Positions 240-10,338 of a stretch of 12,295 nucleotides of DNA are shown here, piece after piece. Source of the stretch: a virus (taxonomy: Duplodnaviria > Heunggongvirae > Uroviricota > Caudoviricetes); the IMG/VR virus record IMGVR_UViG_2740892233_000003, one strand, 5' to 3'. The notes below the pieces were generated by a model. The model had not been told where the DNA came from. It made no database searches and saw only the letters and a list, made by a program, of their open reading frames with translations. Numbering within the stretch: the stretch's first letter is position 1; each line of letters starts with the position of its first letter. The position numbers and the translations under genes were made by a program.

Positions 240-425
240 TTATGCCGCTTGGCGGTAAGCACTTTCTTGATACTTCAGGGCGCCAGCTGTAACGATTTCC
301 AATCGATAGGCGTCTTTCTCTGGGATAACTTCTTTCCACTGAGAGACTGCTGCATCGCTAATGCCTAGTGCTTTAGCAACAGCACGCTGGGTTCCGAAGT
401 GGTCAATAACATCTTTTTTGTACAT
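240..425 (-). CDS. cro: Cro repressor, P22-type (61 aa)
   Basis: Translation MYKKDVIDHFGTQRAVAKALGISDAAVSQWKEVIPEKDAYRLEIVTAGALKYQESAYRQAA matches my memory of P22 Cro almost residue for residue. Divergent from the c2 repressor across an operator region. Confidence 0.85.
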   Translation of the reverse strand: MYKKDVIDHFGTQRAVAKALGISDAAVSQWKEVIPEKDAYRLEIVTAGALKYQESAYRQAA

Positions 426-439
426 AGACTCGCTCCGAA

Positions 440-505
440 ATTAAAGAACACTTAAATTATCCACCAAAGGAATCTTAAGTCAAGTTTATTTAAGATGTCT
501 TAACT
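440..505. promoter_or_regulatory. OR operator/promoter region of module 1 (three P22-type 18-bp operators, pR/pRM)
   Basis: Three sites fit the P22 operator pattern ANTNAAG-N4-CTTNANT: 440-457 ATTAAAGAACACTTAAAT, 463-480 ACCAAAGGAATCTTAAGT, 488-505 ATTTAAGATGTCTTAACT. The last abuts the c2 start codon. Confidence 0.65.
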
Positions 506-1156
506 ATGAATACACAACTGATGGGTGAGCGTATTCGCGCTCGCAGAAAAGAACTCAAGATTAGGCAGGCTGCCCTTGGCAAGATGGTTGGCGTGTCTAA
601 TGTTGCTATTTCCCAATGGGAGCGATCTGAAACTGAGCCCAATGGCGAAAACCTATTGGCCTTAGCCAAGGCTTTGCAGTGCTCCCCTGATTACCTGTTG
701 AAAGGAGAGGATAGTCTTTCAAACATTGCCTATCACAGCAGGCATGATCCAAGAGGTTCGTATCCTCTAATTAGTTGGGTAAGCGCAGGATGTTGGATGG
801 AAGCTGTAGAGCCATATCATAGGCGTGCAATAGATAACTGGTACGACACAACGGTAGATTGTTCTGAAGACTCTTTTTGGCTCGACGTTAAAGGTGATTC
901 AATGACTGCCCCGGCAGGACTGAGTATTCCTGAAGGGATGATTATTCTCGTCGACCCAGAAGTCGAACCACGTAATGGAAAGCTGGTAGTCGCCAAACTT
1001 GAAGGAGAAAACGAGGCGACATTCAAAAAGTTAGTTATTGATGCCGGTAGAAAATTCCTGAAACCACTCAATCCACAATACCCAATGATTGAAATCAATG
1101 GGAACTGTAAAATCATTGGCGTTGTCGTTGATGCCAAGCTAGCAAACCTTCCTTAA
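506..1156 (+). CDS. c2: C2 repressor, P22-type, LexA/S24 peptidase family (216 aa)
   Basis: Translation MNTQLMGERIRARRKELKIRQAALGKMVGVSNVAISQWERSETEPNGENLLALAKALQC... is near-identical to my memory of P22 C2. N-terminal HTH, C-terminal S24 autocleavage domain with GDSM motif and catalytic Lys. Confidence 0.9.
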   Translation: MNTQLMGERIRARRKELKIRQAALGKMVGVSNVAISQWERSETEPNGENLLALAKALQCSPDYLLKGEDSLSNIAYHSRHDPRGSYPLISWVSAGCWMEAVEPYHRRAIDNWYDTTVDCSEDSFWLDVKGDSMTAPAGLSIPEGMIILVDPEVEPRNGKLVVAKLEGENEATFKKLVIDAGRKFLKPLNPQYPMIEINGNCKIIGVVVDAKLANLP

Positions 1157-1180
1157 GGGGCTTTCGCCCCTTTTTTATTT
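1157..1180 (+). terminator. Rho-independent terminator after c2
   Basis: GGGGC-tttc-GCCCC hairpin followed by TTTTTTATTT, directly after the c2 stop codon. Confidence 0.7.
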
Positions 1181-1220
1181 CCCGTTAAAAATCAAAGACA
1201 AACTAAATTCGCGCCCATAA

Positions 1221-1274
1221 AATTAAGTTTTCTTCAAAAATGCACTTGACCAAAAAATTAAGAGGTCTTAAATT
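1221..1274 (+). promoter_or_regulatory. OL operators and pL promoter of module 1
   Basis: P22-type operator-like sites AATTAAGTTTTCTTCAAA (1221-1238) and AATTAAGAGGTCTTAAAT (1256-1273). TTGACC -35 at 1246-1251 and TAAATT -10 at 1269-1274 with 17-bp spacing, reading toward N. Confidence 0.55.
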
Positions 1275-1320
1275 TAAGCCGTCAGCAGGAGGCTGGAAGC
1301 CAAACGGAACAGATTGGCAG

Positions 1321-1359
1321 GCTCTTTAACATCGACGAACTCTCAACCTAACCGTTGAG
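1321..1359 (+). promoter_or_regulatory. nutL-like site of module 1 (boxA GCTCTTTAACA plus boxB hairpin)
   Basis: boxA-like GCTCTTTAACA at 1321-1331. Hairpin CTCAAC-ctaacc-GTTGAG at 1342-1359, in the pL leader upstream of N. Confidence 0.55.
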
Positions 1360-1470
1360 ACCAGAACTTGAGTGGTTTTGGGGATGGCGCGAATTGCAGC
1401 TGCAAGACAGCGATCGAGAAGATAAGCACCTCGACGCGTCATGCGCCAAAGCCACTTAAAGGAGACCATC

Positions 1471-1776
1471 ATGGTAACCATTGTCTGGAAAGAATCCAAA
1501 GGTACGGCAAAAAGCCGCTACAAAGCTCGCAGAGCAGAACTTATTGCCGAGCGACGCAGTAATGAAGCACTGGCGCGAAAAATTGCGCTAAAGCTCTCTG
1601 GTTGCGTCAGAGCAGACAAAGCAGCATCACTAGGAAGCCTTTGCTGCAAGAAGAAAGAAGAAGTTGTTCGAAAAAATAGAAGTATTTATTACAAGGATTC
1701 AAACCCATTAGGAAACAAAATACATGCAGTCCAAAAAATAAAATTGTACAGTAAACTACCGTACGGTGCTTATTGA
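1471..1776 (+). CDS. N: N-type transcription antiterminator with phi21-like arginine-rich motif (101 aa)
   Basis: AGGAG 6 nt upstream of ATG 1471. Translation MVTIVWKESKGTAKSRYKARRAELIAERR... contains GTAKSRYKARRAELIAERR, which I recall as the phi21 N boxB-binding peptide. First gene after pL and nutL. The upstream ATG at 1441 has no ribosome-binding site. Confidence 0.75.
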   Translation: MVTIVWKESKGTAKSRYKARRAELIAERRSNEALARKIALKLSGCVRADKAASLGSLCCKKKEEVVRKNRSIYYKDSNPLGNKIHAVQKIKLYSKLPYGAY

Positions 1777-1784
1777 GTATGCTT

Positions 1785-2117
1785 ATGGTGAAAAAGACTA
1801 TTTATGTTAATCCTGACCGCGGACAAAACAGAAAAGTATCTGATAGAGGTCTTACATCTCGAGACAGGAGGAGAATAGCGAGATGGGAAAAGAGGATAGC
1901 ATATGCATTAAAAAACGGTGTAACACCTGGATTTAATGCTATAGATGACGGTCCTGAATATAAGATTAATGAAGACCCAATGGACAAAGTTGACAAAGCA
2001 TTAGCAACACCATTTCCTCGCGATGTCGAAAAAATTGAAGATGAAAAATATGAGGATGTAATGCACAGAGTTGTTAATCACGCTCACCAACGAAATCCAA
2101 ATAAAAAATGGTCATAG
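1785..2117 (+). CDS. nun: Nun-like transcription termination / phage exclusion factor (HK022 Nun homolog, 110 aa)
   Basis: Translation MVKKTIYVNPDRGQNRKVSDRGLTSRDRRRIARWEKRIAYALKNGV...HAHQRNPNKKWS. Arginine-rich motif SRDRRRIARWEKRIAYALK and the C-terminal KKWS tail (penultimate Trp) are the hallmarks of HK022 Nun as I remember it. Start is 8 nt after the N stop. Confidence 0.8.
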   Translation: MVKKTIYVNPDRGQNRKVSDRGLTSRDRRRIARWEKRIAYALKNGVTPGFNAIDDGPEYKINEDPMDKVDKALATPFPRDVEKIEDEKYEDVMHRVVNHAHQRNPNKKWS

Positions 2118-2137
2118 CCCACTTCGGTGGGTTTTTT
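2118..2137 (+). terminator. Rho-independent terminator after nun
   Basis: CCCAC-ttcg-GTGGG hairpin followed by TTTTTT, immediately after the stop codon. Confidence 0.7.
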
Positions 2138-2288
2138 ATTGGCTGAACTAACCTAATTTATTACAGCAAGCCACGCAGTGAAATGGGTGTGACTTGTGTT
2201 GGTCGCCAGAAAATGAAATTAGGCAGCAAACCACTTATTTGAGGTGAGATATGACAAAATCATGGAGCGTACCTTTTCCTGAATCAGN

Positions 2289-2298
2289 NNNNNNNNNC
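2289..2298. other. Run of 10 N (assembly gap or masked bases)
   Basis: Literal n characters. The flanks are not collinear: a + strand gene start (RBS GAGGTGA, ATG 2251) on the left, the 3' end of a - strand cII on the right. Confidence 0.95.
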
Positions 2299-2589
2299 CA
2301 TCTGGATTTGTTCAGAACGCTCGGTCTTGCACACCGGGCGTTTTTTATTGGTGAGTCCATCAAGCGCATACTTAAAAGCTCTGCTAATCGGACTGATGTC
2401 TGATGCCATTCCGAAAGCACACAAGACCGAAGCAATAAATCTCCAGTCCGTTCTGCTTATCTTCGATTCATGACAGCCAATCATCTTTGCCAGACCGCGC
2501 TGGGTAAGCGTTGACAGGTTGATAAGTAAATCTGTTTCTGCGCGATCAACATCACGCTGTGATAGTTTGCTGTAACTTGTTTGTTCCAT
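2299..2589 (-). CDS. cII: CII-family transcriptional activator, module 2 (C-terminal few codons and stop lost in the N run)
   Basis: Translation MEQTSYSKLSQRDVDRAETDLLINLSTLTQRGLAKMIGCHESKISRTDWRF...LTNKKRPVCKTERSEQIQM. The C-terminal NKKRP...TERSEQIQM matches the lambda CII C-terminus as I recall it. ATG at 2589. Confidence 0.75.
2460..2589. repeat. 130-bp near-identical copy of window positions 1-130 (cII 5' coding region)
   Basis: Direct comparison of the two stretches shows only a handful of mismatches. Both encode CII N-termini. Confidence 0.9.
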
Positions 2590-2674
2590 TTCTTAAGATT
2601 TCCAATAGTGAATAGCTAGTTGAAAGGTATGCGTGGAAACGCATATGGCCTTAGTTGGTCAGATATCTTGGAAC

Positions 2675-2720
2675 TCGCTTTTCAGCGACGTAGGACGAAT
2701 GTCCGTTGTTACAAAGAGCG
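2675..2720 (-). promoter_or_regulatory. nutR-like site of module 2 (boxA CGCTCTTTGTAACA plus boxB TCGCTGAAAAGCGA, read on the - strand)
   Basis: Reverse complement of 2707-2720 is CGCTCTTTGTAACA. Reverse complement of 2675-2688 is TCGCTGAAAAGCGA, a GAAAA-loop hairpin like lambda boxB. Lies between the cro-like gene and cII. Confidence 0.45.
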
Positions 2721-2727
2721 GGGTTAC

Positions 2728-2961
2728 TTATGCTGCTGATGCTCTACGCGATACGAACACCAGATTTTCCTTTTTCACAGGTTTATAACCCGTGAAATTA
2801 CGAGTGGCTTCTTCGATTGCATTCGCTTTATCTGGGGAAGCTCTTCGAAACCCATATACAATCTGATCAAGATAGCCAACTGAAGTATTCGCTAATGCGG
2901 CGAGTCGCTTCCATTCCTCACTAGAAGCCTCTTTTCGCCAGCGTAGTAGTTCATTACTCAT
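2728..2961 (-). CDS. Cro-like HTH DNA-binding regulator of module 2 (77 aa)
   Basis: Divergently placed from the repressor across an operator region. GGAGG ribosome-binding site upstream. Small HTH-like protein. Called by position and size, not by recognised sequence identity. Confidence 0.6.
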   Translation of the reverse strand: MSNELLRWRKEASSEEWKRLAALANTSVGYLDQIVYGFRRASPDKANAIEEATRNFTGYKPVKKENLVFVSRRASAA

Positions 2962-2970
2962 TAGTGCCTC

Positions 2971-3058
2971 CGTTTATCACACAGAGCGACTTTACCATTT
3001 TGATAAATAAAACGCAATGAAGATTTATCAAAATGCATATTTATCCATTTGCTAAATA
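2971..3058. promoter_or_regulatory. OR operator/promoter region of module 2 (TTTATCA-type half-sites)
   Basis: Repeated TTTATCA / TGATAAA half-sites. Perfect 11-bp inverted repeat TTTTGATAAAT (2998-3008) and ATTTATCAAAA (3023-3033). Further copies at 2973-2979 and 3040-3049. Confidence 0.45.
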
Positions 3059-3074
3059 GAGGGAGAATCGTGGG

Positions 3075-3779
3075 ATGGAAAACAAAGATATTCGCAAATC
3101 GAATCTGGCGTTTTTGCTAGATGAGCATAAAAAAATCGCGGGTAACACTAATGCAAGCTTTGCCGATAAGCTTGGAGTTAGCCCTTCTCAACTCACGCAA
3201 GTCTCCGGTGAAAAAAGCACTCGAAACATAGGGGATAAACTAGCAAGAAAATTCGAAGCCGCACTTGGGTTACCTAATGGGTGGCTTGATTTGGTACATG
3301 ATGTAACACCAATTGCATCATGCTCAGATTCTTTAACTTTTGTCGGTCAGGTAAGAAAAGGGTTAGTGCGCGTGGTTGGTGAGGCAATTCTTGGTGTTGA
3401 TGGTGCCATCGAGATGACCGAAGAGCGCGATGGGTGGCTCAATATTTATAGCGATGATCCAGATGCCTTTGGTCTTCGTGTGAAAGGAGACAGCATGTGG
3501 CCCAGAATAAAATCAGGAGAATATGTACTCATTGAGCCTAACACCAAAGTATTCCCGGGGGATGAGGTGTTTGTCAGAACTGTTGAAGGACACAACATGA
3601 TCAAAGTTCTTGGCTATGACAGAGATGGAGAATACCAATTTACAAGCATCAACCAGGACCACAGGCCAATAACGTTGCCTTATCATCAAGTAGCAAAGGT
3701 GGAGTATGTGGCTGGTATTCTGAAGCAATCTCGCCATCTGGATGACATCGAGGCAAGGGAGTGGCTGAAAAGTTCGTGA
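3075..3779 (+). CDS. cI: CI-type prophage repressor, LexA/S24 peptidase family (234 aa), different specificity from module 1
   Basis: GAGGGAG ribosome-binding site. N-terminal HTH region. C-terminal S24 domain with VKGDSMWPRIKSGEYVLIEP (Ser nucleophile in GDSM, Lys general base). Confidence 0.85.
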   Translation: MENKDIRKSNLAFLLDEHKKIAGNTNASFADKLGVSPSQLTQVSGEKSTRNIGDKLARKFEAALGLPNGWLDLVHDVTPIASCSDSLTFVGQVRKGLVRVVGEAILGVDGAIEMTEERDGWLNIYSDDPDAFGLRVKGDSMWPRIKSGEYVLIEPNTKVFPGDEVFVRTVEGHNMIKVLGYDRDGEYQFTSINQDHRPITLPYHQVAKVEYVAGILKQSRHLDDIEAREWLKSS

Positions 3780-4047
3780 CTTCATCGTCACATAGCTGGT
3801 AACCAGTGGCCTGAAGAGACGTTTGGGTGATGTGATAGAGATCATTATTCAATTCGATTGAGAAAAATCATCATAAGGTTTATATCCATTTATTAGATTT
3901 TATGTGTATAAATAGTTAAAAATGCACGATGTAGAGATATTTGTGCTTAACATCAATTAATCATTGCTAAATCGTGCTTATTGTTCAGAAATCGCCCAAG
4001 TCATATTGAAAATCTGTTGGCGAACACCTATATAAGGAGTATAGTTA

Positions 4048-4410
4048 GTGACCCAAAACGTATTGCCAATCAACAAGAGCTTGCATGACCGAGCTGTTGA
4101 TGAATTTAATCGTCTGCATGGAACAATGATTGGCGAGATTAGTGCAATGCTGAAAACAGCTAAAGTAGCGCCATTGGTGGATCTTCGTAAGAAAGATCCT
4201 ACCTTTTCGAACGTTGTCGCAGAATTACGGACATTCAGAGACGTATGTAATGCTCTGCTCCCATACTTTCGTGTAGATAAGACCAGCGAAATCGCTGTCA
4301 TCGATAAGTTACTTATACTGGCTAATGACCTGGCTCAAGCCATCGATGCTGACGATCCTGACGCATTGTGCGCAGCAATAGCAGCCCTTGATGTTGAGCC
4401 TTACATTTAA
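4048..4410 (+). CDS. Hypothetical protein (120 aa), first gene of a two-gene cassette in the repressor-to-pL slot
   Basis: GTG start at 4048 with AGGAG 8 nt upstream. No recognisable motif. Preceded by about 270 bp of AT-rich DNA. Sits where lambda carries rexAB. Confidence 0.55.
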   Translation: MTQNVLPINKSLHDRAVDEFNRLHGTMIGEISAMLKTAKVAPLVDLRKKDPTFSNVVAELRTFRDVCNALLPYFRVDKTSEIAVIDKLLILANDLAQAIDADDPDALCAAIAALDVEPYI

Positions 4411-4425
4411 ACGAGGGGAAAAAAA

Positions 4426-4554
4426 ATGACTAAAGCGTTTGACTATACTGCCGTTAGTAAGCTTTTGGCTGAAATGCGCGGATGTGTAGAGCGCGTTCAA
4501 AATCTACGCCGCGACTTTGAAGCTCACATCAATCATTCACAAAAAGCGGCTTGA
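4426..4554 (+). CDS. Small hypothetical protein (42 aa), second gene of the cassette
   Basis: GAGGGG ribosome-binding site, then ATG 4426. Translation MTKAFDYTAVSKLLAEMRGCVERVQNLRRDFEAHINHSQKAA. Starts 15 nt after the upstream stop and is followed by a terminator. Absent from the ORF track because it is under 60 aa. Confidence 0.4.
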   Translation: MTKAFDYTAVSKLLAEMRGCVERVQNLRRDFEAHINHSQKAA

Positions 4555-4573
4555 TACTTAAGTTAGATGACAG

Positions 4574-4602
4574 AACCCGGCCTCAGCGCCGGGTTTTCTT
4601 TG
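4574..4602 (+). terminator. Rho-independent terminator closing the two-gene cassette
   Basis: CCCGGC-ctcagc-GCCGGG hairpin followed by TTTTCTTTG. Confidence 0.65.
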
Positions 4603-4782
4603 CCTCACGATCCCCACACCTAATAACACCTTAACCAATTGTATTTATTGAAAAATTGATAGATACAACTTTCTAAACCACGAAATTCTGATCCCCCTCA
4701 AGTCTCTTCATTCCTTCTGATAAATTCCCGCAATCAAATAAAAAACCATAATAATCAACAGGATATTTGAAAACCCAAACAA

Positions 4783-4826
4783 TTTATCATTTTGCTATTG
4801 CCATCAGTTTATCATTTCGATAAAGT
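4783..4826 (+). promoter_or_regulatory. OL operators and pL promoter of module 2
   Basis: TTTATCATTT motif twice (4783-4794, 4808-4819), matching the OR half-sites of this module. -35 TTGCCA at 4798-4803 and -10 TAAAGT at 4821-4826, 17-bp spacer. The downstream leader is homologous to the module-1 pL leader. Confidence 0.45.
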
Positions 4827-4837
4827 CAACTCATCAG

Positions 4838-4887
4838 CAGGACGCTGTAAGCCAAACGGAGCAGACTGGCAGGCTCTTTAAACAACG
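4838..4887. repeat. Conserved pL leader / boxA segment shared with 1283-1332
   Basis: GCAGGA(g/c)GCTG(g/t)AAGCCAAACGGA(a/g)CAGA(t/c)TGGCAGGCTCTTTAA is shared between the two modules. Confidence 0.8.
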
Positions 4888-4918
4888 TCGAACACTCGAC
4901 TACGTGGCTGAAAAGCCA
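4872..4918 (+). promoter_or_regulatory. nutL-like site of module 2 (boxA GGCTCTTTAAACA plus boxB TGGCTGAAAAGCCA)
   Basis: boxA-like at 4872-4884. GAAAA-loop hairpin at 4905-4918. A second small hairpin GTCGA-acac-TCGAC lies between them at 4887-4900. Confidence 0.5.
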
Positions 4919-5016
4919 GATCACCCAACCACATAAGCTGTGGGATGCAATGCCGAAGTAACCGTCTCAGGAGGAGCTTCGAGATTGCATCGCCAAAGTT
5001 TATTCGGGAGGAATCT

Positions 5017-5289
5017 ATGTCCAGAAAAACAGAATTTAAAGGCACCGCAGCTTCTCGCCGTAGAGCTCGTCGCGCAAACCTGCAAAGTCAGGAGGCGATT
5101 AGCTCCGACAAGCTACACAGGCCAACCCCTTCACGAGTGGTCTTGCAATGCAAGCGCAAACCAGCAATGAGAGCAGAAGTTATAACTCTGACAACGTTGA
5201 CCAGAAAATATGAAGGTTCAACTTGTCTTCCAAACGTAGCCATTTACGCGGCAGGCTACCGGAAATCAAAACAACTGACAGCGAGGTGA
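5017..5289 (+). CDS. N: N-type antiterminator, P22 gp24-like (90 aa)
   Basis: GGGAGGA ribosome-binding site before ATG 5017. N-terminal arginine-rich motif TAASRRRARRANLQ. C-terminus ...AIYAAGYRKSKQLTAR resembles what I recall of the P22 gene 24 product. The upstream in-frame ATG at 4945 has no ribosome-binding site. Confidence 0.7.
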   Translation: MSRKTEFKGTAASRRRARRANLQSQEAISSDKLHRPTPSRVVLQCKRKPAMRAEVITLTTLTRKYEGSTCLPNVAIYAAGYRKSKQLTAR

Positions 5290-5312
5290 CGATCCCCCCC
5301 GCCGTAGAGGAA

Positions 5313-5852
5313 CTAAATTAGCTCATCAGCTTTACCAGCAAAGCGCATATAACACTCATGGAACCAGACGTCAGGTATAACAAATTTCTCTTTACCTGAC
5401 GCGCTGTAAGTCACACCTGAGCGATGGAGAAGGCCTTTTCTCATAAGAGATAAAGCGACCGGATCGCCGTGCTTAAGTACGATTTTGTTATTTGCCATAA
5501 CAGCAAATGCTAAAACCTCTTTTTCCTGAATACTCAGAGAATTGAATAGGCGCTCAGTCTCCACAATTACTTTAGCCTCATCTCTCTTACTGAGATATTT
5601 TTTATATCTGTCTGAAGATGCCAGAAATATAAACTCCATCCCCCTGTTCAGAACATAACTGATACACAAAAGCATTGCGTAATACATCCAGTGATCTGGA
5701 AGTATTTCGGGGTTCCTTATATCTACCCACTCTTTAATTGATGCTGGGGTGATTATTATCAAGGCAATTAAAATAATAAGCATATGAATTAACTGTTGTA
5801 GCGTAAGACCACGCAGGAAGAAACGTAATAGTTCCTGCCACCAGTTACTCAT
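5313..5852 (-). CDS. sieB: SieB-like superinfection exclusion membrane protein (179 aa)
   Basis: Encoded antisense to the pL operon, convergent with N, as sieB is in lambda and P22. Hydrophobic segments LIHMLIILIALIIITPA and YYAMLLCISYVL near the N-terminus. Size fits. Identification is positional and architectural. Confidence 0.55.
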   Translation of the reverse strand: MSNWWQELLRFFLRGLTLQQLIHMLIILIALIIITPASIKEWVDIRNPEILPDHWMYYAMLLCISYVLNRGMEFIFLASSDRYKKYLSKRDEAKVIVETERLFNSLSIQEKEVLAFAVMANNKIVLKHGDPVALSLMRKGLLHRSGVTYSASGKEKFVIPDVWFHECYMRFAGKADELI

Positions 5853-6070
5853 CGGTGAATCTCCATCATTCTCTCTGTAGGGGTGAATAGAGTTTATCCG
5901 ATTTCTCGCTGTAGGGGTACACGAGAACCACCGAGCCTGATGTGGTTAAAAGACAGGCATACGAATAAACACTGCACTGTGTATTCATTCCAACGAGTGA
6001 ATACACGGAGCAATGTCGCTCGTAACTAAACAGGAGCCGACTTGTTCTGATTATTGGAAATCTTCTTTGC

Positions 6071-6096
6071 CCTCCAGTGTGAGGGCAATTTTTTTG
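6071..6096 (+). terminator. Rho-independent terminator immediately upstream of a strong ribosome-binding site
   Basis: GCCCTC-cagtgt-GAGGGC hairpin, then A plus TTTTTTT, followed at once by GACGGAGGA and ATG 6108. Confidence 0.6.
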
Positions 6097-6215
6097 ACGG
6101 AGGATATATGAGTGAAGTAACAGATTTAGTTGTTATTGAAAAAGCAAATGCAATGACTGTAATTTAGTCTGCCGACCAGATTGAAGAAATTCTTCAAAAG
6201 GTTGAACGTGAAGTT

Positions 6216-7076
6216 ATGTCCTTTGTGCCTGATATCACAACGGCAAAGGGCAGAAAGGAGATCGCTTATCTGGCGTATAAAGTTGCGCAGACGAAAACAT
6301 ATCTCGATGGTCTTGGCAAAGACCTTGTTGCTGAACTGAAGGAAATTCCAAAGCTAATTGATGCTAACCGCAAGACAGTGCGCGATCGCCTTGATGAACT
6401 GAAAGCCAAGGCGCGCCAGCCTCTTACTGATTATGAGGAAGAACAGGCGCGGATTAAAGCCGAAGAAGAAGCTAAGGCAGCAGCTGAAGCTCTCGCAAAG
6501 CAAATTGAGTCTGACCATGAAATAGCGATTTTGATGGATCGCGAATTTGACCGCCAAAGAGAAGAGGCAAGACTCAAAGCGGAGCAGGAAAAGCGAGAGC
6601 ATGAAGAACGCTTAAAAAGAGAAGCTGAAGAGAAAGCCAGAGCTGAAGCCGAAGCAAAGGCAAAAGCCGAAATTGAAGCAGCAGCAAGGCGAGAAGCAGA
6701 AGCTAAGGCCGCAGAGGAACGTGCAGAGCGTGAACGCATTGAAGCCGAGCAACGAGCACAGCGCGAAGCAAAAGAGGCAGCAGAACGAGCTGAAAGAGAA
6801 AAGCATGCGGCAATTGAAGCAGAACGCCGTAAAGCACAGGAGGAGGCAGAACGAATCCTGCGCGAGGCTGAAGCAAAAGAGCAAGCCAGAATAGCAGAAG
6901 AAAAAAGAATCAAGGACGAAGAAGAGCGTAGAGCAAAGGATAAAGCTCACCGGAAAGAAGTAAATAACAAAATACTTGCTGACCTTATCAAGGTTGGCGC
7001 ATCAGAAGATGTTGCTAAAAATATCATAACAGCCATCGTAAAAGGCGAATTATTCGCAACAAAAATAACCTACTAA
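6216..7076 (+). CDS. Highly charged coiled-coil / low-complexity protein (286 aa as drawn); an in-frame upstream start at 6108 is cut by a TAG at 6165
   Basis: Long ORF with a central A/E/K/R-rich repeat region (KAEEEAKAAAEA..., AEAEAKAKAEIEAAARREAEAKAAEE...). The strong-RBS ATG at 6108 is in the same frame but separated by one amber codon. ATG 6216 has only a weak ribosome-binding site. Confidence 0.6.
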   Translation: MSFVPDITTAKGRKEIAYLAYKVAQTKTYLDGLGKDLVAELKEIPKLIDANRKTVRDRLDELKAKARQPLTDYEEEQARIKAEEEAKAAAEALAKQIESDHEIAILMDREFDRQREEARLKAEQEKREHEERLKREAEEKARAEAEAKAKAEIEAAARREAEAKAAEERAERERIEAEQRAQREAKEAAERAEREKHAAIEAERRKAQEEAERILREAEAKEQARIAEEKRIKDEEERRAKDKAHRKEVNNKILADLIKVGASEDVAKNIITAIVKGELFATKITY

Positions 7077-7100
7077 TAAAACCAACATAAGGAACCACCC

Positions 7101-7232
7101 ATGATTTACGCAATCGCGGGAGGCGCTCGCATGGGTGCCTTCCAATTAAATGAATCTTTACTTGAACGAATCACCCGTAAATTACGTGACGGATGGAAAA
7201 GAGTTGAGGTCTTATTATGCGCAATGAAATAG
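7101..7232 (+). CDS. cIII: CIII-like protein (FtsH inhibitor / CII stabiliser), copy 1 (43 aa)
   Basis: Translation MIYAIAGGARMGAFQLNESLLERITRKLRDGWKRVEVLLCAMK. The core ESLLERITRKLRDGWKR is identical to the lambda CIII central helix as I recall it. Confidence 0.7.
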   Translation: MIYAIAGGARMGAFQLNESLLERITRKLRDGWKRVEVLLCAMK

Positions 7233-7348
7233 CCATCAATCACCAGATGCTTCGTGCTGCACAGAACAAGGCAGTAATAGCCCGATTTATTGGTGATTCA
7301 AAAATGTGGCTTGAAGCAAATAAAGCGATGAAATCAGCTATCAACCTN
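7217..7348 (+). CDS. kil: Kil-like protein, copy 1 (3' end lost in the N run)
   Basis: Start overlaps the cIII stop. Translation MRNEIAINHQMLRAAQNKAVIARFIGDSKMWLEANKAMKSAINL... The IA.FIGD.KM segment resembles lambda Kil. Near-identical to the complete copy at 7895-8047. Confidence 0.55.
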
Positions 7349-7358
7349 NNNNNNNNNA
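7349..7358. other. Run of 10 N (assembly gap or masked bases)
   Basis: Literal n characters, inside a duplicated cIII-kil module. The right flank 7359-7388 repeats the terminator-tail and RBS cassette of 6078-6107. Confidence 0.95.
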
Positions 7359-7388
7359 TGTGAGGGCGATTTTTTTGACGGAGGAAAT

Positions 7389-7700
7389 ATGAAATTACGT
7401 GTCTGGCATATCCCGCAAGTACCTATGAAACCGTTCATTGCAGAAGTGGCAAGTGTTGAAGAGGGTGTTCGCCTGATGGGCGCACTGGCTGATTATGACG
7501 CCTTTCAGTATGACAACAACATCAAGCCTGATTACTGCAATGCTAACGGCCTTGAGATGTGGGATGAGAGCCTTACCGATGAAGATTTATCAGAGGTGGG
7601 GCTTACTGATCGCTGGGTGGATTGGTACAGCGAATGCCAATGTTACGACGACCCACGTAAATATCTCGAAAGCCTGAAAGAAGAAACATCAGCCGCCTAA
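7389..7700 (+). CDS. Hypothetical acidic protein (103 aa)
   Basis: GGAGGA ribosome-binding site and ATG 7389. Translation MKLRVWHIPQVPMKPFIAEV...WVDWYSECQCYDDPRKYLESLKEETSAA. No recognised family. Confidence 0.55.
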   Translation: MKLRVWHIPQVPMKPFIAEVASVEEGVRLMGALADYDAFQYDNNIKPDYCNANGLEMWDESLTDEDLSEVGLTDRWVDWYSECQCYDDPRKYLESLKEETSAA

Positions 7701-7775
7701 GCGCGGCTTTACCGCATACCAATAACGCTTCACTCGAGGCGTTTTCGTTATGCAATCAAATATAAGGAGTTACCC

Positions 7776-7910
7776 ATGATGCACTTTCAGCTCGCGGGTA
7801 GCGGCGTCATGTCCGCTTTCTACCCGCACGAATCTGAATTATCACGCCGAGTTAAACAATTAATTAGAGCAGCAAAGAAACAACTGGAGGCGTTATGCGC
7901 AATGAAATAG
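7776..7910 (+). CDS. CIII-like protein, divergent copy 2 (44 aa)
   Basis: AGGAG ribosome-binding site. Translation MMHFQLAGSGVMSAFYPHESELSRRVKQLIRAAKKQLEALCAMK. Same architecture and the same C-terminal LCAMK overlap with kil as copy 1, but the core is diverged. Confidence 0.5.
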   Translation: MMHFQLAGSGVMSAFYPHESELSRRVKQLIRAAKKQLEALCAMK

Positions 7911-8047
7911 CCATTAATCACCAGATGCTTCGTGCGGCACAAAACAAAGCAGTAATAGCCAGATTTATTGGTGATTCAAAAATGTGGCTTGAAGCAAATA
8001 AAGCGATGAAATCAGCTATCAACCTTCCGTGGTATCGCAGGAAATGA
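7895..8047 (+). CDS. kil: Kil-like protein, complete copy 2 (50 aa)
   Basis: Start overlaps the stop of the cIII-like ORF. Translation MRNEIAINHQMLRAAQNKAVIARFIGDSKMWLEANKAMKSAINLPWYRRK. Confidence 0.65.
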   Translation: MRNEIAINHQMLRAAQNKAVIARFIGDSKMWLEANKAMKSAINLPWYRRK

Positions 8048-8214
8048 GTTTCACAGATAACTGGTCAGACGAAGAATTCATTCGTCAGATGAAAGAATTA
8101 ATCGGTAACGAAGGAGATATTCATGTCACTTGCAACCACAGTGAAGGAGAGCAAGTTACAGAGACGCATGTACACGCAGCAGGCGTTAATGTATCGCCAG
8201 AAGGGAGATCGTGA
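8044..8214 (+). CDS. Small hypothetical protein (56 aa) between kil and erf; the position of P22 arf
   Basis: ATG 8044 overlaps the kil stop (ATGA). Acidic protein MSFTDNWSDEEFIRQMKELIGNEGDIHV... Called by position only. A GTG start at 8029 is also possible. Confidence 0.4.
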   Translation: MSFTDNWSDEEFIRQMKELIGNEGDIHVTCNHSEGEQVTETHVHAAGVNVSPEGRS

Positions 8215-8303
8215 AGGTGTTCGCGTATTTTTAAATGCGGCAAAGACTGAAGTATTAAATCAGCGTTATTTCCTTGGGCCATGCCCATTCTGAGAACAAA
8301 CAT

Positions 8304-8909
8304 ATGAGCAAAGACTTTTACGCAAGACTGGCAGCTATTCAGGAGAACTTGAACGCGCCAAAGAATCAGTACAACTCATTCGGTAAATATAAATACAGAA
8401 GCTGCGAAGACATTCTTGAAGGCGTTAAGCCGTTACTGAATGGCCTGTTTTTATCAATCAGCGATGAAGTTGTGTTGATTGGTGATCGGTATTATGTGAA
8501 AGCCACGGCAACTATTACCGATGGCGAAAACAGTCATACGGCAACCGCTCTTGCACGAGAGGAAGAAAGCAAGAAAGGAATGGATTCTGCACAAGTTACG
8601 GGAGCTACAAGCTCTTATGCACGCAAGTATTGCCTCAATGGTTTGTTCGGCATTGATGATGCGAAAGATGCAGATACCGACGAGCATAAACATCAGCAGA
8701 ACGCAGCAGCAAAGCAATCAAAACCATCACCTACACCTGAACAGGTTCTAAAAGCATTCACTGACGCAGCAATGCAGAAAAACACCGTAGAAGAGCTTAA
8801 ACAGGCGTTCGCCAAAGCGTGGAAGATGCTCGAAGGCACACCGGAGCAGCACAAAGCGCAGGACGTTTACAACATCAGACGAGACGAATTAGAAGGAGCT
8901 GCTGCTTAA
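8304..8909 (+). CDS. erf: Erf-family single-strand annealing recombinase (201 aa)
   Basis: Translation MSKDFYARLAAIQENLNAPKNQYNSFGKYKYRSCEDILEGVKPLL... is typical of the ERF family (P22 Erf-like). The start could instead be the upstream in-frame ATG at 8274. Confidence 0.8.
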   Translation: MSKDFYARLAAIQENLNAPKNQYNSFGKYKYRSCEDILEGVKPLLNGLFLSISDEVVLIGDRYYVKATATITDGENSHTATALAREEESKKGMDSAQVTGATSSYARKYCLNGLFGIDDAKDADTDEHKHQQNAAAKQSKPSPTPEQVLKAFTDAAMQKNTVEELKQAFAKAWKMLEGTPEQHKAQDVYNIRRDELEGAAA

Positions 8910-9292
8910 TGGCACATTCGATTACTGTAAGACTAAACAAGCCCGCAAGAGAGTTTCAGACCGGGGAAAATATCGGATTCAACATCCGTGCTGGCGTTCA
9001 GTATTACGATCGCCAGACAAAAAAGAAAGAATGGACAAACTACAGCGCCGTTGTATTTGCCAAGCCGGGAGCGCAAGCGGATTACTACCGTAGTGTTCTT
9101 GTTGAAGGTGGCATTGTGGAAATTACCGGAGAAAACATCAGGGTTGATGTTTATCAGGGGCAAAATGGTCAATCAATCACTCTTGAATTACTGAATGCAA
9201 AGATTGGATTTGCAGCTTCAGGAAATGGCCCGCAGCAGCAAAGTAGTAACCAGCAGAACACTCCTGTATACGACGATTCCATCCCATTCTGA
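8909..9292 (+). CDS. ssb: Single-stranded DNA-binding protein, SSB-like (127 aa)
   Basis: ATG overlaps the erf stop (TAATG). C-terminal acidic tail ...PVYDDSIPF is the SSB partner-binding tail signature. The Gln/Asn-rich linker before it is SSB-like. Confidence 0.6.
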   Translation: MAHSITVRLNKPAREFQTGENIGFNIRAGVQYYDRQTKKKEWTNYSAVVFAKPGAQADYYRSVLVEGGIVEITGENIRVDVYQGQNGQSITLELLNAKIGFAASGNGPQQQSSNQQNTPVYDDSIPF

Positions 9293-9315
9293 TTTAGAAA
9301 AATAAGGATTTAATT

Positions 9316-9609
9316 ATGCCAGCGCCTCTGTATGGTGCGGATGACCCACGCCGCTGTTCCGGCAATTCCGTATCGGAGGTGCTGGATAAATTCAGAAAAA
9401 ACTACGATCGGATAATGTCGCTACCGCAGGAAACGAAAGAGGAAAAGGAATTTCGCCATTGTATATGGCTTGCAGAGAAAGAAGAACGCGAGCGAATTTA
9501 CCAGACATCAATCCGACCATTCCGCAAAGCCACATATACCCACTTCCCTGAAATTGACCCGCGCCTGCGTAATTACCGCTCACGCTATGGCGCTATCAGT
9601 AATGACTGA
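9316..9609 (+). CDS. Hypothetical protein (97 aa)
   Basis: Ribosome-binding site and ATG 9316. Size and position after the recombination genes are reminiscent of P22 Abc2 (anti-RecBCD). I cannot confirm this from the sequence. Confidence 0.5.
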
Positions 9610-9619
9610 GGAATTTACC

Positions 9620-9784
9620 ATGAGAGGACTTGCATACAATCCCGGCATTCTTCCGGCAGAAATGATTATTCGCCAACGCGCAAAGCCAATGCCATCGAGA
9701 GAGGAATTGCTTAAGAGAAAGAGTTTCGGTTCTGTTAATGACAACAAATATCTGAATGCGATGTGGCGGAGTGGGAAGAAATGA
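9620..9784 (+). CDS. Small hypothetical protein (54 aa)
   Basis: GAGGA ribosome-binding site 7 nt upstream of ATG 9620. Basic protein. Its stop overlaps the next start. Confidence 0.4.
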
Positions 9785-10338
9785 AACAAATGACACTAAT
9801 TGAGATGGATGGTTTTCTGAAAGGTAAATGCATCCCAAGTGATTTAAAGGTTGACGAAACAAACGATGAATATCTTGTCCGTAAGTTCGGTGAACTTGAA
9901 TCAAAACTAGAAACGGCGTTGCGGGAGTGTCGTTCTGCTGGAATCACGATTGATAACCTTGAGGCTAAATGCGCGAAGATGGCTGCTGAAAATTCCTCGC
10001 TTAAGCAATCTGAGAAGGAATTTAATGACTTTTGTCGTGAGGAGTTTAGCGAATGGGAAGATGATATTACTGAAACCCCAGCCACCGATGCTTTTCTGGC
10101 TGAAGTGAAGACTGAAGCACGCAAGGAGGGCGCTTACTTTGTGGCGAACAGAATGCTGGCTGCCTGGGAAGCTGGTTTTATTGATGATACTGCGAAGAAC
10201 GCCGCTGATATTGCCCGGATGATTCTTACCTCTACTGAGTTTATGGCCAATGCGCCGGAAGGCGATTTTGACCGTTCATTCTCTGATGGCGTTCTCGAAG
10301 ATATCGCCGAACAGCTTCGTAAAGGAGTCATCCAATGA
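9781..10338 (+). CDS. Hypothetical acidic phage early protein (185 aa)
   Basis: ATG 9781 with GGAG upstream, overlapping the previous stop (ATGA). The ORF-track start at 9763 is a GTG with no ribosome-binding site. Confidence 0.5.

What the first reader, a model, noticed from the sequence alone, without database searches (positions are those of the whole stretch)
3780..4602. Self-contained two-gene cassette in the repressor-to-pL slot: candidate lysogen-expressed exclusion or defence module
Between the CI-type repressor (ends 3779) and OL/pL (about 4783) lies about 270 bp of AT-rich DNA, then a 120-aa gene (GTG 4048, strong AGGAG) and a 42-aa gene (4426-4554), closed by a strong intrinsic terminator (4574-4602). 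This is the position where lambda carries rexAB, and where lambdoid phages carry lysogenic-conversion and abortive-infection genes transcribed with or next to the repressor while pL is off. Neither protein resembles anything I recognise. The AT-rich leader contains TTTATATCCATTT (3878-3890), which echoes the TTTATCCATTTGC operator half-site of this module, so the cassette may be repressor-regulated. Its own terminator and AT-rich flank fit a horizontally acquired moron.
Basis: partly seen in the sequence, partly recalled or inferred. Interest (0 to 1): 0.72.

Follow-up and report, generated by a model that had tools for sequence, protein, structure and literature searches.

The report
Uncharacterised two-gene prophage cargo cassette
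Just after the repressor gene of a lambda-like prophage sits a mobile two-gene cassette of unknown function, in a slot where sister phages carry a known anti-phage system, so it is a reasonable but untested candidate for a new defence module.

Summary
A 120-aa gene (4048-4410) and a 42-aa gene (4426-4554) lie between an H-19B-type cI (3075-3779) and OL/pL (4783-4826). An AT-rich leader precedes them and an intrinsic terminator (4573-4602) follows.

Both genes are real: dN/dS is 0.05-0.4, and they occur as a pair in every relative I examined, from E. coli to Proteus, Vibrio and Gilliamella. In about 40 of 46 loci the pair lies 200-450 bp downstream of a prophage repressor, behind at least 9 different CI types and a P2-type C repressor.

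The cargo has sharp boundaries (about 3834 and 4574). Phages with the same cI (H-19B, BP-4795, ST2-8624) carry a HigB/HigA/SecB-like toxin-antitoxin-chaperone defence system in exactly that slot.

Neither protein matches Pfam, NCBIfam, PADLOC or any solved structure. Both are soluble and helical. The small one is a single amphipathic helix that always ends in KAA, like an ssrA degradation tag.

The proposed operator echo at 3878-3890 is no better than chance.

Function is untested. My best guess is a lysogen-expressed cytoplasmic defence module with toxin-antitoxin-like logic. I rate it moderately interesting.

The parts
3075..3779 (+). H-19B-type CI repressor gene (234 aa), the upstream neighbour. 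pRM read-through is a likely source of cassette transcription.
   Evidence: Pfam Peptidase_S24, E 3.8e-16. About 95% DNA identity to H-19B-type Stx phages. OR1 at 2991-3007 and OR3 at 3040-3056. No terminator-like site between 3780 and 4047.
3792..3830 (+). In-frame relic of a lambda-type cI 3' end (IAGNQWPEETFG*). It belongs to the backbone and forms the left docking site of the cargo slot.
   Evidence: Translation. Shared by H-19B, BP-4795, ST2-8624 and AU5Stx1 up to about 3833. Intact cI genes ending in QWPEETFG/QWPEETFE directly precede the cassette in L018, L009 and L041.
3834..4047 (+). AT-rich leader of the cargo (28.6% GC). It includes a candidate extended -10 promoter, TGTATAAAT, at 3905-3913.
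   Evidence: Composition. The left junction with the backbone is at 3832-3834. Parts of it are conserved in other contexts, including non-immunity sites such as L007. No conserved RNA structure.
3881..3897 (.). It is a chance-level partial match, not an operator.
   Evidence: 8.2 bits against 18.7-21.6 for true operators. 518 of 2000 shuffles reach this score. The sequence does not co-vary with the cI type.
4003..4059 (+). Highly conserved promoter-like block overlapping the ribosome-binding site and start codon. One pair is TTGAAA (4006-4011), 17 nt, TATATA (4029-4034). A second pair is TTGGCG (4017-4022), 17 nt, TATAGT (4040-4045). The Shine-Dalgarno AAGGAG is at 4034-4039.
   Evidence: One search found the second pair. 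The 28-nt core (4026-4053) is 22-28/28 identical in cassettes whose proteins share only 45-53% identity. In L043 the block lies about 55 nt upstream of a new ATG.
4048..4410 (+). 120-aa gene (WP_000193240.1, phrog_13858). It encodes an acidic (pI 4.9), soluble helical-bundle protein with a conserved C-terminal P-Y-I tail.
4426..4554 (+). 42-aa gene (WP_000158654.1, phrog_12503). It encodes a single amphipathic helix with an invariant Cys20 and a C-terminal KAA. It has its own Shine-Dalgarno GAGGGG at 4413-4418.
   Evidence: Present 12-19 nt after the large gene in every locus where the search found it. The KAA or QAA end is kept in Proteus, Vibrio and Gilliamella partners. dN/dS 0.06-0.41. AF2 pLDDT 94, helix over residues 7-41.
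4573..4602 (+). Intrinsic terminator that closes the operon, equivalent to lambda tImm. It is also the right docking site of the slot.
   Evidence: Fold. Backbone identity with H-19B-type phages resumes at 4575. A terminator follows the small gene in every related context but one, with compensatory stem changes.
4783..4826 (+). OL2 (4783-4799), OL1 (4808-4824) and pL. This is the downstream boundary of the immunity-region slot.
   Evidence: The N gene (5017-5289) matches Pfam N_peptide at E 8e-32.

Best explanation
Shown:
- Bases 3834-4574 are a mobile accessory operon, a moron. It sits in the cargo slot between cI and the tImm-like terminator of an H-19B-immunity lambdoid prophage.
- In E. 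coli O103 RM8385 this prophage is integrated next to ybhC.
- The operon encodes two soluble cytoplasmic helical proteins that are always inherited together.
- The first is a 120-aa acidic helical bundle ending in P-Y-I.
- The second is a 42-aa single amphipathic helix ending in K-A-A.

Inferred, roughly 0.8:
- The operon is transcribed rightward in the lysogen. The source would be read-through from pRM (and pRE), as for lambda cI-rexA-rexB, and/or its own conserved promoter block.
- Transcription stops at the terminator before OL/pL.
- The two proteins form a complex, with the small helix docking on the bundle.

Inferred, about 0.45:
- The function is protection of the lysogen against other phages, acting inside the cell rather than at the membrane.

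Speculative, about 0.2:
- The logic resembles a toxin-antitoxin system.
- The KAA tail would make the small protein a short-lived ClpXP or FtsH substrate.
- Phage-induced shut-off of host expression, or interference with proteases, would then change the ratio of the two partners and release the active one.
For: Cargo status:
- The junctions with the backbone are exact, and H-19B, BP-4795, ST2-8624 and AU5Stx1 carry three alternative cargos behind the same cI.
- The core is present, always intact and at least 99% identical, in only 89 of 5426 complete E. coli genomes.

Link to lysogenic transcription units:
- The pair lies 200-450 bp downstream of a CI repressor in about 40 of 46 loci, behind at least 9 CI C-terminal types.
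- It lies after the repressor of Proteus phage Pm34.
- It lies after a P2-type C repressor and before int in Gilliamella.

Autonomy:
- It also occurs next to tail-fibre or acyltransferase genes, or at other non-repressor sites, in L007, L014 and L045, and in a Vibrio island.
- A promoter-like block precedes it in most enterobacterial loci and a terminator follows it almost everywhere.

The slot holds defence genes:
- The sister cargo matches PD-Lambda-2_A (E 2.5e-42), PD-Lambda-2_B (E 3.8e-50) and PD-T4-9_C (E 3.2e-11), and its first gene is HigB-like.
- These are validated abortive-infection systems (PMC9519451).
- The cI-to-N region is a known mosaic hotspot that holds rexAB and bstA (PMC8585504).

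Cytoplasmic partners:
- Neither protein has a transmembrane segment.
- The small protein is one long amphipathic helix whose invariant residues lie on one face.
- The KAA end is conserved where the rest of the sequence is unrecognisable.
- From established knowledge: C-terminal Ala-Ala with a free carboxylate is the core of the ssrA and RseA(1-108) ClpX recognition signals.
Against: - There is no expression, toxicity or phage-resistance data.
- There is no homology to any defence, toxin or antitoxin family.
- The fold is a generic helical bundle with no conserved catalytic-looking residues.
- Position alone does not prove defence, because lysogenic-conversion genes of other kinds also occupy such slots.
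- The better conserved promoter-like pair would start transcription just after the GTG, which the simple model does not explain.
- The degron reading of KAA rests on analogy only. The tail could instead be a docking motif.
- In complete E. coli genomes no copy has lost one gene, so no natural experiment reveals toxicity.
Confidence: 0.45

Rival explanations
1. It is a lysogenic-conversion module that alters host physiology or gene regulation and has no role against phages. For example, it could be a small regulatory complex that binds a host protein such as a nucleoid-associated protein, a protease or a sigma factor.
For: - Both proteins look like binders, not enzymes.
- The layout of a roughly 120-aa helical protein followed by a small Cys-containing helical protein recalls tomB-hha.
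- The E. coli hosts are mostly EHEC/STEC lineages from cattle and humans, where prophage regulators affect virulence.
Against: - No homology to TomB or Hha: hhalign probability is 1%, and neither window protein matched Pfam YbaJ or HHA.
- The pair occurs in very different hosts (Proteus, Xenorhabdus, Pantoea, Gilliamella, Vibrio). This fits a phage-directed role better than a niche-specific host one.
Confidence: 0.22
2. It is an accessory of the lysogeny switch itself. The pair would modulate repressor stability, induction threshold or establishment of lysogeny, for example by titrating or redirecting ClpXP, FtsH or RecA activity.
For: - It associates tightly with repressor genes of two unrelated classes, the S24-type CI and the P2-type C.
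- The protease-tag-like KAA tail is conserved.
- pRE and pRM would express it both during establishment and during maintenance (inference from lambda).
Against: - It works behind at least 9 different CI types and also away from any repressor, in L007, L014, L015, L045 and Vibrio. It therefore cannot depend on one specific repressor.
- Most phages of the same immunity group lack it.
Confidence: 0.13
3. It is a plain addiction (post-segregational killing) toxin-antitoxin pair that stabilises the prophage, with no defence role.
For: - Two small co-transcribed genes are always kept together.
- One partner is possibly labile because of its KAA end.
- Every E. coli copy is intact.
Against: - There is no recognisable toxin or DNA-binding antitoxin fold.
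- Integrated prophages gain little from addiction.
- Toxin-antitoxin systems in this slot that have been tested act as defence (PMC9519451).
Confidence: 0.1
4. It is a counter-defence (anti-immune) module that the phage uses during infection.
For: Small soluble binder proteins are typical of anti-defence genes.
Against: It lies upstream of OL/pL and is cut off from the early lytic operon by a terminator. It sits in the unit that is transcribed when lytic genes are off. Anti-defence genes of lambdoid phages lie in the pL or pR operons.
Confidence: 0.05

Closest known systems
Lambda rexA-rexB (with terminator tImm)
   Same: Same position and orientation: immediately downstream of cI, upstream of OL/pL, closed by an intrinsic terminator. 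Two genes. Presumably co-transcribed with the repressor in lysogens.
   Different: No sequence or fold relationship. RexB is a polytopic membrane protein, whereas both proteins here are soluble. The genes are far smaller (120 and 42 aa, against 279 and 144 aa).
HigB/HigA/SecB-like toxin-antitoxin-chaperone cargo of H-19B, BP-4795 and ST2-8624 (PD-Lambda-2 / PD-T4-9 CmdTAC-like)
   Same: It occupies exactly the same slot behind the same cI, between the same left junction (about 3833) and the same terminator. It is a small multi-gene operon of toxin-antitoxin type.
   Different: The proteins are unrelated. That cargo has a recognisable RelE/HigB toxin and an HTH antitoxin. This cassette has neither.
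BstA-aba of Salmonella prophage BTP1
   Same: Encoded downstream of cI in the cI-to-N hotspot, highly expressed in lysogens, and closed by its own terminator. Its self-immunity element aba spans 29 bp upstream plus the first 34 bp of the gene (PMC8585504). That recalls the ultra-conserved block around this cassette's start codon.
   Different: BstA is a single large DNA-binding protein. There is no homology. Nothing shows that the conserved block here has an aba-like role.
tomB-hha (type VII toxin-antitoxin)
   Same: A helical protein of about 120 aa is followed by a small helical protein with a single conserved cysteine.
   Different: hhalign probability is 1%, with only an IDEYL pentapeptide shared. 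The window proteins gave no Pfam YbaJ or HHA match. The small protein here is 42 aa and one helix, not the 72-aa four-helix Hha.
Toxin-first antitoxin-labile defence pairs such as rnlA-rnlB
   Same: This is the proposed logic only: a second, smaller, protease-sensitive partner whose decay after phage-induced shut-off frees the first partner.
   Different: No homology. Lability and toxicity are untested here.

Membership tests
Moron (accessory gene unit of lambdoid phages, in the Hendrix/Juhala sense) | Present in some phages and absent from close relatives, inserted between genes that are otherwise adjacent | tested here: met
   Same cI and same terminator, but different or minimal cargo in H-19B, BP-4795, ST2-8624 and AU5Stx1. 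The slot is empty in the window's other immunity region (cI 506-1156, N-like gene from 1441).
Moron (accessory gene unit of lambdoid phages, in the Hendrix/Juhala sense) | Own factor-independent terminator | tested here: met
   Hairpin plus T-run at 4573-4602. A terminator follows the small gene in every related context but one.
Moron (accessory gene unit of lambdoid phages, in the Hendrix/Juhala sense) | Own promoter | tested here: inconclusive
   Two conserved sigma-70-like pairs lie at 4006-4045 and an extended -10 at 3905-3913. There are no TSS data, and the best conserved pair would start transcription after the GTG.
Moron (accessory gene unit of lambdoid phages, in the Hendrix/Juhala sense) | Expressed from the repressed prophage | not testable with these tools
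   Needs RNA-seq or TSS mapping of a lysogen.
RexAB-type exclusion | RexA-like sensor plus RexB-like membrane channel | tested here: not met
   No Pfam or PADLOC hit. The highest 19-residue hydropathy is 1.22 and 0.34, so there is no transmembrane segment.
Known anti-phage defence systems (PADLOC-DB 2.0.0) | Match to any model of a known or candidate defence protein | tested here: not met
   No families at E up to 10 for either protein. The Vibrio homologues also gave none.
Type II toxin-antitoxin system | Two adjacent, co-oriented, tightly spaced small genes that are conserved as a pair | tested here: met
   A 12-19 nt gap and strict co-occurrence.
Type II toxin-antitoxin system | Recognisable toxin fold and DNA-binding antitoxin | tested here: not met
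   No Pfam or NCBIfam match. Only generic helical-bundle structure hits.
Type II toxin-antitoxin system | One partner toxic alone, the other labile and neutralising | not testable with these tools
   Only the conserved KAA C-terminus hints at lability.
TomB-Hha | Homology to the YbaJ (PF10757) and HHA (PF05321) families | tested here: not met
   hhalign probability is 1%. The window proteins have no Pfam hit, while genuine TomB and Hha score 1e-65 and 8e-40.

The most novel reading that the evidence does not exclude
The pair would be the founding member of a new family of cytoplasmic two-component anti-phage systems carried in the lysogenic operons of both lambdoid and P2-like prophages. A 40-aa single-helix micro-protein with an ssrA-like KAA tail would serve as a protease-coupled infection sensor or timer for a helical-bundle effector. 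The ultra-conserved DNA block at the start codon would act as its control or self-immunity element.
Probability: 0.15. Interest if true: 0.72.

Novelty: new member of a known kind. Interest (0 to 1): 0.5.

Why it matters
The region between cI and N is a proven reservoir of prophage-encoded immunity, holding rexAB, stk, bstA and PD-Lambda-2/CmdTAC-like systems.

This cassette is a compact, widely travelled occupant of that slot. It has no characterised relative, and it is absent from PADLOC 2.0.0 and from every isolated-phage genome searched except Proteus phage Pm34.

If it is a defence system, it would add a very small new family (about 160 codons in total). It offers a simple, testable handle: the KAA tail and the 120-aa binder. 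It would also help explain phage-susceptibility differences among O26, O103 and O111 STEC lineages.

If it is not a defence system, it is still a clean example of cassette exchange by recombination between a conserved cI 3' end and tImm.

Tried and rejected
1. Repressor control through the operator echo at 3878-3890. Rejected: 8.2 bits against at least 18.7 for true operators, 26% of shuffles equal it, and the same leader sits behind a different cI DNA-binding domain.
2. Known families. Pfam, NCBIfam and PADLOC gave nothing. PHROGs gave only unknown-function families.
3. Structure-based annotation.
   - Foldseek against BFVD gave nothing at E up to 0.001.
   - A PDB profile search hit only designed helical proteins.
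   - The afdb50 library was unavailable.
4. HEPN-like toxin. There is no conserved Rx4-6H motif in the 31-sequence alignment.
5. TomB-Hha homology. Rejected.
6. Leader RNA element or sRNA.
   - Rfam gave only a sub-threshold sroD hit over the terminator (19.8 bits against a cut-off of 50).
   - RNAalifold gave -1.8 kcal/mol with no covariation.
7. Membrane-based exclusion. Rejected: no transmembrane segments.
8. Complex prediction.
9. Literature. No paper or supplement in the library mentions WP_000193240 or WP_000158654.
10. Natural knock-outs as a read-out of toxicity. All 101 E. coli copies are full length. Only one IMG/VR contig (L046) has a deletion, and it removes parts of both genes.

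Full report
**Setting.** The window is a scaffold of three pieces joined by runs of ten N, at 2288-2297 and 7348-7357. The finding lies wholly inside the middle piece.
- That piece is the immunity region of a lambdoid prophage of the H-19B type.
- Its genes are cII (2284-2589, minus), cro (2728-2961, minus), cI (3075-3779, plus; Peptidase_S24), N (5017-5289, plus; Pfam N_peptide E 8e-32) and sieB (5313-5852, minus).
- The operators annotated in GQ499358 map to OR1 2991-3007, OR3 3040-3056, OL2 4783-4799 and OL1 4808-4824. A pL-like promoter lies at 4798-4826.
- The same DNA occurs at 100% identity in E. coli O103 RM8385. There it belongs to a prophage integrated next to ybhC, and PGAP calls the two genes hypothetical proteins WP_000193240.1 and WP_000158654.1.

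**Observation.**
- The leader is 268 bp and AT-rich: 33% GC, and 28.6% for 3835-4047, against 44% for the window.
- The 120-aa ORF starts at GTG 4048, behind AAGGAG at 4034-4039. The 42-aa ORF runs 4426-4554, behind GAGGGG.
- A hairpin with a 9-bp GC-rich stem and a T-run lies at 4573-4602, with a centroid energy of -16 kcal/mol and z = -2.5.
- The exception is the operator echo. I scored the leader with a matrix built from the four true operators. The best leader site (3881-3897) scores 8.2 bits, against 18.7-21.6 for the operators.
- 518 of 2000 dinucleotide shuffles of the leader do as well.
- The identical leader also follows a cI with a different N-terminal DNA-binding domain in L026.

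**The genes are real and form an obligate pair.**
- The 120-aa protein belongs to a small family: 14 clusters by word search and 36 representatives among 1.84 billion proteins.
- Family members are nearly all 104-130 aa. Conserved motifs are GEISxMLxxAKLxP near the N-terminus and AIAALDxKPYI at the very C-terminus.
- dN/dS is 0.05-0.14 for the large gene and 0.06-0.41 for the small one. Synonymous sites are often saturated.
- A small ORF follows 12-19 nt after the large one in every locus I fetched where the search could detect it. These loci come from E. coli, Enterobacter, Citrobacter, Serratia, Hafnia, Pantoea and Xenorhabdus.
- Proteus phage Pm34 carries the pair as gp26 and gp27. Vibrio parahaemolyticus and Gilliamella carry it too.

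**The cassette is swappable cargo with exact boundaries.**
- H-19B, BP-4795, ST2-8624 and AU5Stx1 share the backbone with the window up to about 3833, and again from 4575, the first base of the terminator stem.
- The shared left flank contains an in-frame relic of a lambda-type cI C-terminus, IAGNQWPEETFG*, at 3792-3830.
- In other phages the cassette follows an intact cI that ends in QWPEETFG or QWPEETFE.
- The slot therefore appears to exchange cargo by recombination between the conserved cI 3' end and the tImm-like terminator.
- In H-19B, BP-4795 and ST2-8624 the slot holds three genes. These match Pfam HigB_toxin (E 4.5e-30), PADLOC PD-Lambda-2_A (E 2.5e-42), PD-Lambda-2_B (E 3.8e-50) and PD-T4-9_C (E 3.2e-11).
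- That makes the sister cargo a toxin-antitoxin-chaperone type system. Members of this type were shown to give abortive-infection defence (PMC9519451).
- The cI-to-N interval is already described as a mosaic hotspot that holds rexAB and bstA (PMC8585504).

**Distribution.**
- The cargo core (3840-4570) is present in 89 of 5426 complete E. coli genomes, at 101 places. It is always full length and at least 99% identical.
- Isolated phages essentially lack it. Only Pm34 has a homologue, at 52% identity.
- In about 40 of 46 loci the pair lies 200-450 bp downstream of a CI repressor, and those repressors have at least nine different C-terminal types.
- In Gilliamella P2-like prophages a 32%-identical pair lies between a P2-type C repressor (PF07022) and int.
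- Exceptions exist. The pair lies beside tail-fibre or acyltransferase genes or in other non-repressor settings in Pantoea, Serratia and an IMG/VR contig, away from any repressor in Xenorhabdus, and in a Vibrio island of large ORFans.
- A terminator follows the small gene in every locus but one (Pm34). The stem sequences differ but the pairing is kept.
- The unit is therefore autonomous, yet it strongly prefers lysogenic transcription units.

**Regulatory anatomy.**
- A block from about -45 to +12 around the start codon is far better conserved than the coding sequence.
- The 28-nt core CCTATATAAGGAGTATAGTTAGTGACCC (4026-4053) is 22-28/28 identical in cassettes whose proteins share only 45-53% identity.
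- The block contains two promoter-like pairs, offset by 11 bp. The first is TTGAAA-17-TATATA, with a predicted start near 4041. The second is TTGGCG-17-TATAGT, with a predicted start near 4052.
- The second pair has a perfect TATAAT in L015, L035 and L043. In L043 the block lies about 55 nt upstream of a new ATG.
- The N-terminal 26 codons are clearly translated, because they show synonymous variation. A start near 4052 is therefore puzzling.
- The conserved AAGGAG implies that transcripts from further upstream are translated. Candidate sources are pRM read-through (no terminator was found in 3780-4047) or an extended -10 at 3905-3913.
- No RNA structure is conserved in the leader.
- I cannot tell whether the block is a promoter, an autoregulatory operator, a recombination joint or an aba-like DNA element.

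**The proteins.**
- Neither protein matches Pfam, NCBIfam or PADLOC.
- The large protein is acidic (pI 4.9) and has no transmembrane segment.
- It is modelled as a helical bundle with pLDDT 82 and pTM 0.72. Only generic bundle matches were found.
- Its invariant residues are mostly hydrophobic or structural. This suggests a binder and not an enzyme.
- The small protein is modelled as one continuous helix, residues 7-41, with pLDDT 94.
- Its invariant residues (L14, M17, C20, V24, L27) follow a heptad-like stripe. It probably docks on a partner, most simply on the large protein.
- Every small partner ends in KAA, or once in QAA, with synonymous codon variation.
- This includes the Vibrio (49 aa...TAKAA) and Gilliamella (38 aa...QNKAA) versions, whose remaining sequence is unrecognisable.
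- From established knowledge, a C-terminal Ala-Ala with a free carboxylate is the core ClpX recognition signal of the ssrA tag and of RseA(1-108). Non-polar tails also target proteins to FtsH.
- I take this as a lead, not as a demonstration, that the small protein is short-lived.

**Interpretation.**
- I am about 90% confident in the anatomy: a mobile two-gene operon in the rex-equivalent slot.
- Expression in lysogens and formation of a heterocomplex are likely, but both are inferred.
- Defence against superinfecting phages is the most probable role, at about 0.45. The reasons are the slot, the sister cargo, the preference for repressor operons in two unrelated phage families, and the spread across diverse hosts.
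- A toxin-antitoxin-like mechanism with a protease-sensitive small partner is speculative, at about 0.2.
- The rivals are a host-physiology modulator (0.22), an accessory of the lysogeny switch (0.13), a pure addiction module (0.10) and counter-defence (0.05).

**Verdict.** This is a genuine, conserved and uncharacterised cargo cassette. It is a new member of a known kind, the lysogen-side morons of the cI-to-N hotspot, and a sensible candidate for a phage-challenge experiment. It is of moderate interest until a phenotype is shown.

Noticed in passing
window 2288-2297 and 7348-7357: Two runs of ten N show that the window is a scaffold of three contigs. The joins fall inside cII and inside kil, genes shared by co-resident lambdoid prophages. 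The three pieces therefore need not be physically contiguous.
   Followed up: partly
window 240-1776: The first piece carries a second, different immunity region: a cro-like gene at 240-425 (minus), an S24-type cI at 506-1156 (plus) and an N-like gene at 1441-1776 (plus). Its cI-to-N interval is only 284 bp, so the slot is empty. This is a built-in contrast to the occupied slot at 3780-4602.
   Followed up: partly
window 3792-3830: An in-frame relic of a lambda-type cI C-terminus (IAGNQWPEETFG*) follows the stop codon of the H-19B-type cI. H-19B, BP-4795, ST2-8624 and AU5Stx1 share it. It is probably the recombination anchor for cargo exchange.
   Followed up: yes
L011 (H-19B, AF034975) 1516-3000; L012 (BP-4795) 1651-2992: The cargo in the same slot of H-19B, BP-4795 and ST2-8624 is a HigB-like toxin, an HTH antitoxin and a SecB-like protein (PADLOC PD-Lambda-2_A, PD-Lambda-2_B and PD-T4-9_C). 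The H-19B record annotates no gene there.
   Followed up: yes
window 4026-4053: A 28-nt core spanning the Shine-Dalgarno sequence and start codon is 22-28/28 identical in cassettes whose proteins are only 45-53% identical. The best conserved promoter-like pair would start transcription after the GTG. This remains unexplained.
   Followed up: partly
window 5313-5852 (minus): A SieB superinfection-exclusion gene (Pfam E 1.5e-19) lies right after N, so this prophage carries at least one known exclusion function close to the cassette.
   Followed up: no
window 7217-7347 and 7895-8047: The kil coding sequence appears twice, once cut by the N run and once complete. This fits overlapping contig ends from similar prophages.
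   Followed up: no
L046 2813-3014: One IMG/VR contig has a deletion of about 300 bp that joins codon 36 or so of the 120-aa gene to codon 11 or so of the 42-aa gene. It is the only disrupted copy I saw, and it could be an assembly artefact.
   Followed up: no
L048-L050 (Vibrio parahaemolyticus) 2369-10315: The distant homologue pair (104 aa and 49 aa) sits among four ORFs of about 660-830 aa that have no Pfam hit; the three I scanned have no PADLOC hit either. The island has different left flanks in different strains, so it may be an uncharacterised variable or defence island.
   Followed up: partly
L004-L006, L009, L013, L029, L036, L043 (about 4560-4900, minus strand): In many non-E. coli loci a 63-76-aa gene on the opposite strand lies between the cassette's terminator and pL. 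It is recorded as DUF2767 (PF10965) in the Pantoea loci L009 and L010. This window has no such gene.
   Followed up: no
window 4507-4601: A weak Rfam sroD match (19.8 bits against a gathering score of 50, E 0.48) overlaps the end of the small gene and the terminator. I judge it a chance match.
   Followed up: yes
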